Assembly (NCBI GenBank): GCA_027021195.1
Contig: JALUUW010000003.1
Span: 4,843 to 68,842, forward strand
From: Candidatus Pacearchaeota archaeon
GTDB taxonomy: Archaea; Nanobdellota; Nanobdellia; Pacearchaeales; GW2011-AR1
Length of the DNA: 64,000 nucleotides
Reading direction: 5' to 3'
Shown: one piece after another, positions 10,179 through 10,967 of the stretch
How positions within the stretch are numbered: position 1 is the first letter of the stretch
Layout of the letters: the number at the start of each line of letters is the position of its first letter
Notes under the pieces: model-generated
What the model was told of the DNA's origin: nothing
Seen by the model: only the letters and a program-made list of their open reading frames with translations
Database searches by the model: none
Program-made: the position numbers and the translations under genes

Positions 10179-10967
10179 TTACACTAAAACTTCATCAACT
10201 CCGTATCCAGGAGGCCATGCAAGGCTTCTTGAAGCAAACTGGAATTTATTTCCGCTGTTGAGGTCTGTTAAAATATAGATTGTAGTGCCGTCGGATTGTT
10301 TTTTCTTCTCAACTTTCAAATCACGGTAATAGTTCATGTAGGTTGTTGTTTCAGCATCTCCGTATCTTGTTTCCCATGCAATTATGCTGTTTGCAATACT
10401 TAATAGTTCATAAAGATTATTGTTCAGGACTACTCTTAAATTGTCATAGCTTTCTGAAGATTCTTTTGTGAGAGTTAAGGAGTTGCTGAATGTAGCGACA
10501 ATTCTTTTTGGAAGCAGCTCAACATCAGGCTCTCCCTGCTTTAAGCTTACTTTATACCCTCTTTTCTCATAACTCTCTTTCATGGAATCAAAGCACTCTT
10601 TTGCCTTTCCTCTTATGTCTTTTTTTATCTCAGACTCAATGTGCTTTTTCAGCATTGGCTGCTGCACCACGCATGTTTTGTAGTACTCCTCAGTGTAGCA
10701 AAGATATTCTACTTTTTCATCATTATACAAAAAATAGTGTTCTGGCTTCAGGCTGCCACCCTGCATTGAAAGCCTTTCAACAGAATTTTTAATATCCTCT
10801 TCCATGCAGTTTTGAATAAATGCAGACGGATTCATGCTCTCGAGCCACAAATTAGACCCTATCTTTGGATAAAACAAGTAAGATAAAACACCTATAATCA
10901 CAATCATTATTGCAATTATGATGAAAATCGTCACTTGCCCCTTTCTTTTCCATGATATTTCCCGCAT
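10179..10967 (-). CDS. membrane-anchored protein with class III (pilin-like) signal-peptide-like N-terminus
   Basis: N-terminus is WKRKGQVTIFIIIAIMIVIIGVL. It is a paralogue of 14771..15601 (SMQGG, YLCYT..YY..C..PML, F.FA.RS...PPG). Its stop lies 1 nt before the downstream ATG. Confidence 0.6.
   Translation of the reverse strand: MREISWKRKGQVTIFIIIAIMIVIIGVLSYLFYPKIGSNLWLESMNPSAFIQNCMEEDIKNSVERLSMQGGSLKPEHYFLYNDEKVEYLCYTEEYYKTCVVQQPMLKKHIESEIKKDIRGKAKECFDSMKESYEKRGYKVSLKQGEPDVELLPKRIVATFSNSLTLTKESSESYDNLRVVLNNNLYELLSIANSIIAWETRYGDAETTTYMNYYRDLKVEKKKQSDGTTIYILTDLNSGNKFQFASRSLAWPPGYGVDEVLV

What the first reader, a model, noticed from the sequence alone, without database searches (positions are those of the whole stretch)
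10179..10967. Class III (type IV pilin-like) signal-peptide-like N-termini on the two small partner proteins
Seen in sequence: the N-termini are MREISWKRKG-QVTIFIIIAIMIVIIGVL (10179..10967) and ..FPKAKRS-QVTIFIIAGMIVVVAI (14771..15601). Each has a short basic stretch, a small residue, then Q and a ~20-residue hydrophobic helix.

Established knowledge: archaeal prepilin peptidases (PibD, FlaK, EppA) cleave after [KR]-[GAS]. Many substrates start Q-x-[ST]-x-E (the DUF361 motif). Here the Q-V-T part matches but the +5 Glu is Phe.

Inference: these may be pilin-like subunits that display the Cys-rich partner. No pilus ATPase, platform protein or prepilin peptidase is present in this window.
Basis: partly seen in the sequence, partly recalled or inferred. 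Interest (0 to 1): 0.5.

Follow-up and report, generated by a model that had tools for sequence, protein, structure and literature searches.

The report
Pilin-like leaders on DPANN envelope proteins
Two small membrane proteins of a tiny symbiotic archaeon carry what looks like the cut-here signal of pilus subunits, and each is paired with a secreted cysteine-rich protein in a conserved, uncharacterised cell-surface gene module that may matter for how these cells build their surface or hold on to hosts.

Summary
Observation confirmed. Two paralogous minus-strand ORFs (S1 10179-10967; S2 14771-15601; 35% identical) start with a basic leader, a small residue, Gln, then a 22-24-residue uncharged helix. 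In 255 homologues the site reads K-[RK]-[GAS]|Q-[VIL]-T-[IL]-F-[IV]-I. Gln is the only invariant column, -1 is only G/A/S, leaders run 4-69 residues, and -3..+7 is the most conserved stretch. S1's KGQV equals the EppA-processed sites of Methanococcus EpdB/EpdC. An EppA-type class III signal peptide is therefore the best reading.

Cleavage is not shown. Pfam and NCBIfam pilin models do not hit, +5 is Phe, and the ectodomain resembles no solved pilin. No A24 peptidase, pilus ATPase or platform gene lies in the window or in about 1.7 Mb of related loci.

Each S gene sits 1 nt upstream of a Sec-secreted Cys-rich partner, with near-strict partner fidelity (65/65 and 41/43). In relatives the module continues with a third large protein and four small proteins with [KR][GAS]Q N-termini, next to the S-layer gene and a pacearchaeosortase. 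This is an uncharacterised, slowly evolving Pacearchaeota/Woesearchaeota envelope module. Display of the Cys-rich partner is plausible but inferred.

The parts
10179..10967 (-). S1: 262-aa small partner protein (leader, hydrophobic domain, linker, alpha/beta ectodomain with 4 conserved Cys)
   Evidence: ORF. 1784 homologues and 1140 50%-identity clusters, none with Pfam or NCBIfam hits. AF2 model has pLDDT 92.7.
10938..10967 (-). S1 predicted class III signal peptide, residues 1-10 (MREISWKRKG); predicted cleavage after Gly10
   Evidence: Motif statistics. The FlaFind-type core regex places the site at residue 10. KGQV is identical to the EpdB/EpdC sites (PMC4371748). Cleavage is inferred, not shown.
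10866..10937 (-). S1 hydrophobic H-domain, residues 11-34 (QVTIFIIIAIMIVIIGVLSYLFYP); would be the mature N-terminus
   Evidence: Uncharged stretch, family median 24 residues. Predicted helix 9-32. Most conserved segment of the protein.
10182..10829 (-). S1 extracellular alpha/beta domain, residues 47-262
14771..15601 (-). S2: 276-aa paralogue of S1
   Evidence: ORF. 35% identical to S1. S2-like genes pair with the long C protein in 41/43 cases.
15530..15601 (-). S2 predicted class III signal peptide, residues 1-24 (MKKRGTRALGLLFNKRAFPKAKRS); predicted cleavage after Ser24
   Evidence: Ser at -1 occurs in 12/255 homologues. The site passes the FlaFind-type core only if Ser is allowed at -1. 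G/A/S at -1 is the published requirement (PMC4371748).
15464..15529 (-). S2 hydrophobic H-domain, residues 25-46 (QVTIFIIAGMIVVVAISSFLFF)
8690..10177 (-). C1: 495-aa secreted Cys-rich partner of S1; its start codon lies 1 nt after the S1 stop
   Evidence: ORF. 1863 homologues. 40 invariant Cys. AF2 pLDDT 84.3. Small disulfide-rich beta modules, no significant PDB match.
10076..10177 (-). C1 ordinary Sec-type signal peptide, residues 1-34 (...IVSA|VGE)
   Evidence: Homologues show variable n-h-c signals ending in ISA/VSA-type sites just before the conserved SYCCE. The signal is less conserved than the mature part. A signal peptidase I gene lies at 53551..54189.
11026..14769 (-). C2: 1247-aa partner of S2. 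It has a C1-like Cys-rich module, a Gly/Ala/Thr-rich cluster of TM segments, and a C-terminal module homologous to the separate 'C3' protein of relatives
10990..10996 (-). TTTATAA (TATA-box-like), 22 nt upstream of the S1 ATG
   Evidence: Read directly. Same spacing as for S2. Promoter function is inferred.
15624..15630 (-). TTTATAA (TATA-box-like), 22 nt upstream of the S2 ATG
   Evidence: Read directly. It supports the annotated ATG, and so the long S2 leader, as real. Promoter function is inferred.

Best explanation
S1 and S2 are members of a large, uncharacterised family specific to Pacearchaeota, Woesearchaeota and Nanoarchaeia. They are type IV pilin-like (class III signal peptide) proteins of the Gln+1, EppA-substrate type.

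Proposed mechanism:
1. The basic leader keeps the N-terminus in the cytoplasm while Sec inserts the 22-24-residue H-domain and exports the alpha/beta ectodomain. The topology is inferred from the basic leader, the four conserved Cys and the secreted partner.
2. An A24 prepilin-type peptidase encoded elsewhere in the genome cuts after Gly10 (S1) or Ser24 (S2). This leaves Gln as the new N-terminus of a conserved QVTIFII helix. This step is inferred.
3. The helix holds the protein in the membrane. Alternatively it packs with the N-terminal helices of the other pilin-like proteins of the module (p4-p7 in relatives) into a short pseudopilus-like stalk. This step is inferred.
4. Each S ectodomain binds its own co-translated, Sec-secreted Cys-rich partner (S1 with C1, S2 with the C1-like module of C2) and retains it at the cell surface beside the S-layer. 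This step is inferred from gene coupling.

What is shown: the motif and its extreme conservation, the S-C gene coupling and partner fidelity, the module's composition and neighbourhood, and the lack of linked pilus machinery.

What is not shown: cleavage, filament formation, and physical S-C binding.
For: Motif:
- -3 is K, -2 is R/K, -1 is only G/A/S, +1 is Q in 255/255, and leaders run 4-69 aa.
- Q11 is the sole invariant column among 133 diverse sequences.
- The site is the lowest-entropy window of the protein.
- The uncharged H-domain has a median of 24 aa.
- The FlaFind-type core matches S1 and 208/249 homologues, or 220/249 with Ser allowed at -1.

Published specificity:
- G/A/S at -1 and a charged -2 are required in archaea. 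EppA sites are KGQV, KGQL, KGQI and RAQI. +1 Gln is essential (PMC4371748; PMC4390842; PMC2910488).

Internal control:
- The C1 family has variable Sec signals that are less conserved than the mature part.

Pairing:
- 110 of 128 S genes are followed by a C gene and 83 are directly adjacent. The commonest spacer is 1 nt or 0.
- S1-like genes pair with a short C in 65/65 cases, S2-like with a long C in 41/43.
- The unit persists at about 33% identity in a different genomic context.

Module:
- Relatives add p4-p7, each with a [KR][GAS]Q N-terminus followed by a hydrophobic domain.
- The S and p7 N-terminal modules align by hhalign (probability 88.6%, E 2.6e-6, 53 columns).
- The module lies next to the S-layer gene (PF05124) and a pacearchaeosortase.

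Context:
- flaI/flaJ/flaK homologues are reported in Woesearchaeota and Nanoarchaeota MAGs (PMC11606122; PMC8407392).
- Epd-like system 1 type IV filament loci are reported in DPANN (bioRxiv 10.64898/2026.04.22.720090).
- Pacearchaeota are reported as strongly host-attached (PMC7906910).
Against: - No A24 peptidase motif, GspE-type ATPase or TadC-like polytopic protein was found in the window, in 81 genome loci (1.2 Mb) or in 80 metagenome loci (0.5 Mb). The last set reaches up to 10 kb beyond p7.
- PF04021 (DUF361), PF07790 and TIGR02537 do not hit S1, S2 or p4-p7.
- +5 is Phe, not the Glu typical of EppA substrates.
- S1 evolves about as slowly as the DNA primase (median identity 61.8% against 57.9%). 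This is unusual for pilins or adhesins.
- p4-p7 fail the FlaFind-type core because of polar residues at +2..+6.
- Makarova et al. 2016 note two nanoarchaeal genomes without a recognisable prepilin peptidase (PMC4858521).
Confidence: 0.55

Rival explanations
1. Uncleaved type II signal anchor. S1 and S2 are bitopic membrane proteins whose N-terminal helix simply tethers an extracellular domain that binds or chaperones the Cys-rich partner. On this reading the conserved KxGQVTIF segment reflects helix-helix or lipid-headgroup contacts within a membrane complex, not a protease site.
For: - No peptidase, ATPase or platform gene is linked to the module in about 1.7 Mb of related DNA.
- Pilin HMMs do not hit.
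- A flexible linker lies between the helix and the globular domain.
- The ectodomain has no pilin-like structural match of significance.
- Slow, housekeeping-like evolution.
Against: - A plain anchor does not need an invariant Gln, an exclusively G/A/S residue before it and a basic -2/-3, all at the cytoplasmic edge of the helix, while the leader is free to vary from 4 to 69 residues.
- The four-residue site is identical to proven EppA sites (PMC4371748).
- Five other protein families of the same module carry [KR][GAS] followed mostly by Gln at the same position.
Confidence: 0.27
2. PilN/PilO/GspM-like assembly factor. S proteins would be bitopic 'alignment' components (one TM helix plus a periplasmic alpha/beta domain) of an unrecognised secretion or envelope-assembly machine for the C proteins, rather than pilin-like subunits.
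For: - The overall architecture is one N-terminal TM helix plus alpha-beta repeats.
Against: - To my knowledge PilN, PilO and GspM lack a conserved [KR][GAS]Q site.
- No partner machine genes are present.
Confidence: 0.06
3. Ordinary Sec (class I) signal peptide removed by signal peptidase I after the hydrophobic stretch, releasing a soluble S protein.
For: A signal peptidase I gene is present in the window (53551..54189, TIGR02228, E 1.3e-21). The N-terminus has the n-region plus hydrophobic layout common to all Sec signals.
Against: - The uncharged stretch is 21-45 residues (median 24), which is TM-length.
- It ends in ...LFYP(K/Q)I, without an AxA-type site.
- Its start is the most conserved part of the protein, which is the opposite of the C1 family's true Sec signals.
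Confidence: 0.03

Closest known systems
Methanococcus maripaludis Epd pilins (EpdA-E), substrates of the prepilin peptidase EppA (DUF361 / PF04021 group)
   Same: Both have a short basic leader and [KR]-[GA] at -2/-1, with an invariant and, in Methanococcus, essential Gln at +1. The hydrophobic domain follows the site. S1's KGQV is identical to the EpdB/EpdC sites (PMC4371748; PMC4390842). Several paralogous small proteins with such N-termini are encoded together.
   Different: +5 is Phe rather than Glu, and +9 is not Leu. PF04021 does not hit. The 230-aa alpha/beta ectodomain has 4 Cys and no solved relative. No EppA, ATPase or platform genes are linked. Each S gene is obligately paired with a Cys-rich secreted protein.
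Sulfolobales 'bindosome' substrate-binding proteins (GlcS, AraS, TreS) with class III signal peptides
   Same: This is what S most resembles in working principle. A class III leader and H-domain are attached through a linker to a non-pilin globular domain. The genes are not located in a type IV filament cluster, and processing is by a peptidase encoded elsewhere (PMC4371748; bioRxiv 10.64898/2026.04.22.720090).
   Different: There is no ABC transporter context and no SBP fold. The Gln+1 site is EppA-type rather than PibD-type. The partner is a secreted Cys-rich protein, not a permease.
Bacterial minor-pilin sets with a non-pilin tip protein (FimU-PilVWXE plus PilY1; T2SS GspH-I-J-K)
   Same: An operon of several small pilin-like proteins plus large Sec-secreted non-pilin proteins presumed to be presented by them. 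The logic matches S1, S2 and p4-p7 plus C1-C3. The resemblance is recalled from knowledge of those systems, not tested by homology.
   Different: No sequence or fold homology was detected. The site is archaeal-type and lacks Glu5. No major pilin or ATPase has been identified. The module sits beside the S-layer gene and a pacearchaeosortase.
Modular type IV pilins (for example Streptococcus sanguinis PilB)
   Same: A pilin N-terminal module carries a functional, non-pilin extracellular domain (PMC8179133).
   Different: In S the extra function is presumably supplied in trans by a separate partner protein. There is no homology.

Membership tests
Archaeal class III signal peptide / type IV pilin-like proteins (prepilin-peptidase substrates) | The processing motif, with charged -2 and G/A/S at -1, lies before the hydrophobic domain, after a short basic leader | tested here: met
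   S1 ...KRKG|Q and S2 ...KAKRS|Q. Family-wide, -2 is R/K in 230/255 and -1 is G/A/S in 255/255. Criteria are from PMC4371748.
Archaeal class III signal peptide / type IV pilin-like proteins (prepilin-peptidase substrates) | A hydrophobic H-domain of about 20 residues directly follows the site | tested here: met
   The uncharged stretch from +1 has a median of 24, minimum 21. Predicted helix 9-32.
Archaeal class III signal peptide / type IV pilin-like proteins (prepilin-peptidase substrates) | The leader is actually removed by an A24 prepilin peptidase (PibD, FlaK or EppA) | not testable with these tools
   This needs N-terminal sequencing, MS or a co-expression assay.
Archaeal class III signal peptide / type IV pilin-like proteins (prepilin-peptidase substrates) | An A24-family peptidase is encoded in the same genome | not testable with these tools
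   Only 64 kb (plus about 3 kb) of this genome could be read. None was found there or in 160 related loci. flaK is reported in related Woesearchaeota and Nanoarchaeota MAGs (PMC11606122; PMC8407392). Two nanoarchaea were reported without one (PMC4858521).
Archaeal class III signal peptide / type IV pilin-like proteins (prepilin-peptidase substrates) | Recognised by curated pilin N-terminal models (PF07790 Pilin_N, TIGR02537 arch_flag_Nterm) | tested here: not met
   No hit for S1 or S2 at E<=0.1 (Pfam) or E<=1 (NCBIfam). A canonical pilin-like gene in L014 does give a weak TIGR02537 hit.
Type IV filament subunit (true pilin) | Genomic linkage to, or dependence on, a PilB/FlaI-type ATPase and a PilC/TadC/FlaJ-type platform | tested here: not met
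   No GspE-type Walker A protein and no polytopic platform-like protein in the window or in 160 related loci. Dependence in trans is not testable.
Type IV filament subunit (true pilin) | A long N-terminal alpha-helix whose C-terminal half packs against the globular domain | tested here: inconclusive
   [not shown]
EppA substrates / DUF361 (PF04021, motif QxSxExxxL) | Gln at +1 | tested here: met
   255/255. It is the only invariant column.
EppA substrates / DUF361 (PF04021, motif QxSxExxxL) | Ser at +3, Glu at +5 and Leu at +9; hit to PF04021 | tested here: not met
   +3 is Thr (231/255), +5 is Phe (246/255) and +9 is Ala or Gly. There is no PF04021 hit. S is therefore not filed as a DUF361 member, only as having an EppA-like site.
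Sec class I signal peptide (signal peptidase I substrate) | A short h-region followed by a small-x-small cleavage site; the signal is poorly conserved | tested here: not met
   The hydrophobic stretch is TM-length, there is no AxA-type site after it, and the N-terminus is the best-conserved region. The C1 family in the same loci shows the true class I pattern.

The most novel reading that the evidence does not exclude
Probability: 0.1. Interest if true: 0.85.

Novelty: new variant of a known kind. Interest (0 to 1): 0.55.

Why it matters
Pacearchaeota and Woesearchaeota are among the most abundant and least understood archaea. They have minimal genomes and no cultured representatives that I know of, and they are reported to be strongly host-attached (PMC7906910). 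Most of their lineage-specific proteins are unannotated and predicted to be extracellular (PMC8204110).

This work defines one such conserved set. Relatives occur in at least 176 species-level genomes, in 1140 protein clusters. The set has a concrete, testable biochemical handle: an EppA-type Gln+1 cleavage site. Its organisation is also defined: pilin-like anchors, each coupled to a Cys-rich secreted partner, beside the S-layer gene and a pacearchaeosortase.

If the leaders are cleaved, the repertoire of archaeal class III substrates grows by a large DPANN-specific family with a new ectodomain fold. It would also provide candidate components for the pili-like appendages or host-contact structures seen on ultrasmall cells. 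If they are not cleaved, the invariant Gln motif itself needs a new explanation.

Tried and rejected
Searches that found nothing:
- Pfam and NCBIfam scans of S1, S2, C1, C2 and later p4-p7 and C3 gave no significant hits.
- PDB sequence and profile searches with the S, p5 and p7 alignments found nothing.
- A motif and TM scan for peptidase, ATPase and platform genes in 1.7 Mb of related loci found none.
- Literature searches found no description of this family or of Pacearchaeota pilins or peptidases.
- The metaproteome supplements of PMC11537232 contain no matching peptides. The supplements of the type IV filament preprint are not held.

- I tried an S1-C1 complex prediction as a linker fusion with a mixed paired and unpaired alignment. 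The first alignment mis-aligned and was fixed locally.
- The search for related loci with the diverse alignment A1 failed for lack of a conserved stretch. It worked with A2.
The third homologue search was therefore left unused.

Not possible with these tools:
- Finding a prepilin peptidase in this genome or in a complete Pacearchaeota genome. No seed sequence was available, and contigs can only be read within 10 kb of known hits.

Interpretations considered and rejected:
- DUF361 membership: the motif beyond Gln1 is not met.
- A class I Sec signal.
- A PilO-like assembly factor: only weak fold similarity.
- C3 as a fusion of an S-like and a C1-like module: it is instead homologous to the C-terminal half of C2.

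Full report
**What is there**

The window is a low-GC (about 37%) archaeal contig of DPANN type. It encodes PCNA, a fused PriS-PriL primase, aminoacyl-tRNA synthetases and CDC48 homologues. On the minus strand, downstream of PCNA (15707..16447), lie four genes in the order S2 (14771..15601), C2 (11026..14769), S1 (10179..10967) and C1 (8690..10177).
- S1 and S2 are paralogues (35% identity, E 3e-52).
- C1 and the N-terminal 545 residues of C2 are paralogues (37% identity, E 1e-88).
- In each pair the C start codon lies 1 nt after the S stop (coordinates).
- Each S gene has a TTTATAA box exactly 22 nt upstream of its ATG. This supports the annotated starts, including the long S2 leader, and suggests one promoter per pair.

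**Is the N-terminal pattern meaningful?**

S1 has 1784 homologues in the 90%-clustered protein collection. It has 1140 cluster representatives at 50% identity. Relatives occur in at least 176 species-level genomes, nearly all labelled Pacearchaeota, Woesearchaeota or Nanoarchaeota. None carries a Pfam domain.

Across 255 alignable N-termini the consensus is K-[RK]-[GAS]|Q-[VIL]-T-[IL]-F-[IV]-I-x-[AG].
- Position -1 is only G (216), A (27) or S (12).
- Position +1 is Q in all 255.
- The preceding leader ranges from 4 to 69 residues and is unconserved.
- In a 133-sequence alignment reaching about 30% identity, Gln11 is the only invariant column.
- The lowest-entropy 10-residue window of the protein is residues 8-17: 0.87 bits, against 2.36 for the ectodomain and 3.05 for the leader.
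- The uncharged stretch that follows has a median of 24 residues.

The C1 family in the same genomes serves as an internal control. It has ordinary, variable Sec signal peptides ending in ISA/VSA-type sites. These are less conserved than the mature protein (2.16 against 1.17 bits). A plain membrane anchor would not be expected to fix a Gln, a small residue before it and basic residues before that, at the cytoplasmic end of the helix.

**Comparison with defined class III sites**

The review PMC4371748 states three relevant points:
- All prepilin-type sites need G/A/S at -1.
- A charged -2 is critical in archaea.
- EppA substrates have a highly conserved +1 Gln.

Its Table 1 gives the M. maripaludis sites as EpdA RAQI, EpdB KGQV, EpdC KGQV, EpdD KGQL and EpdE KGQI. 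PMC4390842 reports that the +1 Gln is essential for EppA processing.

S1 reads KGQV and S2 reads RSQV. A FlaFind-type core pattern, written from my memory of the published rule, places the site after residue 10 in S1. It hits 208 of 249 homologues, or 220 if Ser is allowed at -1. It hits none of the control families PCNA or p4-p7.

The family is nevertheless not a DUF361/PF04021 member. +3 is Thr, +5 is Phe and +9 is Ala or Gly. Neither PF04021, PF07790 nor TIGR02537 hits.

**Structure**

AlphaFold2 with a 133-sequence alignment gives a confident S1 model (pLDDT 92.7, pTM 0.82).
- Helix 9-32 is followed by a break at Pro34 and a low-confidence linker (33-46).
- A compact alpha/beta domain follows (47-255), with four near-invariant Cys.
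- Foldseek finds no hit at E<=1e-3, and a profile search of PDB sequences finds nothing.

The ectodomain therefore has no solved relative, and the fold gives no independent support for a filament-forming pilin. The layout of leader, H-domain, linker and unrelated globular domain most resembles class III-anchored proteins such as the Sulfolobus bindosome binding proteins.

**Genomic context in relatives**

I clustered ORFs from 81 genome loci and 80 metagenome loci centred on p7. This reveals a conserved module: PCNA > S2 > C2 > S1 > C1 > C3 > p4 > p5 > p6 > p7. It is followed by a divergent wHTH regulator, the S-layer gene (PF05124, E 9e-11) and, a few genes on, a pacearchaeosortase (NF033505, E 4e-67).

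The four small proteins p4-p7 each have a family-specific N-terminus of the same type:
- p4: [KR]G|QMKLSFGMIFSIILII
- p5: [KR]G|YLQISFAWLFAII
- p6: [KR]A|QLKIQQMAFMLLAVTLFF
- p7: [KR][AGS]|QEEMVGFALIIIIVAV

The N-terminal 53 columns of the S and p7 families align by hhalign (probability 88.6%, E 2.6e-6). p4-p7 have polar or charged residues at +2..+6 and fail the FlaFind-type core. Their class III status is therefore weaker.

This window lacks C3 and p4-p7. After C1 it has an Lrp/AsnC regulator and a radical-SAM/SPASM, methyltransferase and Peptidase_S66 island, and the contig ends about 3 kb beyond the window start.

**S-C coupling**

- Of 128 S genes, 110 have a C gene within four ORFs downstream on the same strand. 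In 83 cases the C gene is directly adjacent, most often with a 1-nt or 0-nt spacer.
- S1-like genes are always followed by a short C (65/65). S2-like genes are followed by a long C in 41/43 cases.
- A member only about 33% identical to S1 keeps the S-C(1346)-S-C(503) arrangement in a different neighbourhood.

The pair has thus been duplicated and inherited as a unit. This is the main, indirect argument that each S protein works with its own C protein.

S1 is unusually conserved for a surface protein. Its median identity to the window protein over 45 genomes is 61.8%, against 72.6% for PCNA and 57.9% for the primase.

**What is missing**

No GspE/FlaI-type ATPase motif, no TadC/FlaJ-like polytopic protein and no GxGD-type polytopic peptidase occurs in the window or in any of the 160 related loci (about 1.7 Mb). 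The metagenome loci extend up to 10 kb beyond p7. The only polytopic proteins found are C2 homologues, a glycosyltransferase and small transporters.

Whether this genome encodes an A24 peptidase could not be determined. Published surveys report flaI/flaJ/flaK in most Woesearchaeota MAGs of one study (PMC11606122) and in Nanoarchaeota and Woesearchaeota (PMC8407392). Epd-like system 1 loci are reported in DPANN (bioRxiv 10.64898/2026.04.22.720090). Makarova et al. noted two nanoarchaea without a recognisable peptidase (PMC4858521).

**Verdict**

- The best explanation (confidence about 0.55) is an EppA-type class III signal peptide on a new, DPANN-specific family of pilin-like proteins. Each is coupled to a Sec-secreted Cys-rich partner, within a conserved envelope module beside the S-layer gene.
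- Cleavage, filament formation and S-C binding are all inferred.
- The main rival (about 0.27) is an uncleaved signal anchor whose conserved motif serves intramembrane contacts.
- The finding is a new variant of a known kind. It is of moderate interest now, and it offers clear experiments that could make the surface biology of Pacearchaeota tractable.

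Noticed in passing
Related loci, e.g. L057 12211..14622 and L091 8098..10480 (not in the window): Four conserved small genes (p4 about 165 aa, p5 about 310, p6 about 175, p7 about 165) follow C1/C3 in 30-35 of 81 related genome loci and in the metagenome loci. Each has its own conserved [KR][GAS]Q-type N-terminus plus a hydrophobic domain and conserved Cys. None hits Pfam, NCBIfam or PDB. 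The window's genome lacks them at this position.
   Followed up: partly
window 11026..14769 (-): C2 is a composite protein. It has a C1-like Cys-rich module (about aa 85-545), a Gly/Ala/Thr-rich cluster of 3-5 predicted TM segments (about aa 610-745), and a C-terminal module homologous to the separate C3 protein of relatives (about aa 690-1247, with a weak Big_13 Ig-like hit).
   Followed up: partly
L091 11210..13705 and 15651..16184; also L057, L106, L149 and others: In relatives the module lies next to the S-layer gene (PF05124 S_layer_C) and, a few genes further on, a 'pacearchaeosortase' (NF033505, 225 bits). A PAP2 phosphatase, a CARDB/fn3 secreted protein and SepF are also nearby. Together these form a conserved cell-envelope region.
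   Followed up: partly
window 15530..15601 (S2 leader); homologues P0080, P0085, P0098, P0260; p7 of L002/L011; p4 of L048: A recurrent long leader of the form K-R-G-T-[PR]-A-L-...-[KR]-S-K-R-S|Q appears in subsets of four different families (S2, S1, p4, p7). Ser at -1 goes together with this long leader. This suggests either exchange of 5' ends between module genes or a second leader type.
   Followed up: no
window 10990..10996 and 15624..15630 (-): An identical TTTATAA box lies exactly 22 nt upstream of the S1 and S2 start codons. This suggests separate promoters with very short or no 5' leaders for each S-C pair.
   Followed up: partly
Related loci, e.g. L008, L036, L038, L054, L071, L081; L084 14697..15382: Small gene pairs are recurrently inserted between S1 and C1 or just after C1. 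One pair in L084 carries HEPN and nucleotidyltransferase Pfam hits, which looks toxin-antitoxin-like. The insertions split an otherwise tightly coupled pair.
   Followed up: no
window 550..8668: Where relatives have C3 and p4-p7, this genome has an Lrp/AsnC-type regulator with a duplicated HTH (7625..8668). It also has an island of three radical-SAM/SPASM genes, methyltransferases and a Peptidase_S66 (LD-carboxypeptidase-like) gene. Similar genes interrupt the module in L004, L071 and L165.
   Followed up: partly
window 16589..18202 (+): A single 537-aa ORF combines DNA_primase_S and DNA_primase_lrg hits with a CpXC zinc-ribbon insertion, so it is a fused PriS-PriL primase. It is divergently placed next to PCNA in most related loci.
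   Followed up: no
window 18199..20064 (+): A 621-aa secreted Cys-rich protein with a C-terminal TM segment and a Pro/Arg-rich tail. It has a faint squalene-hopene-cyclase-like hit and is a conserved neighbour of the primase (cluster 9, 28 loci). It is followed by further conserved secreted proteins, including a lamin-tail-domain protein at 22302..23048.
   Followed up: no
L009 2172..3032; L014 2628..3956; L071: Some relatives carry a canonical archaeal pilin-type gene between primase and PCNA. Its N-terminus reads KRRG|MSAIITSVIII or EKRG|LSTVVTYLIII. The L014 protein gives weak TafC and TIGR02537 hits. These lineages therefore also have PibD/FlaK-type class III substrates.
   Followed up: partly
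[not shown]
   Followed up: partly
window 10179..10967 compared with 16589..18202: The extracellular S1 protein is about as conserved across 45 genomes (median 61.8% identity) as the DNA primase (57.9%). This is unusual for a surface or adhesin-type protein.
   Followed up: yes
window 55104..57398 and 57805..59988 (+): Two CDC48-like AAA ATPases (Walker A GPPGTGKT) lie in tandem, each preceded by a small ORF.
   Followed up: no
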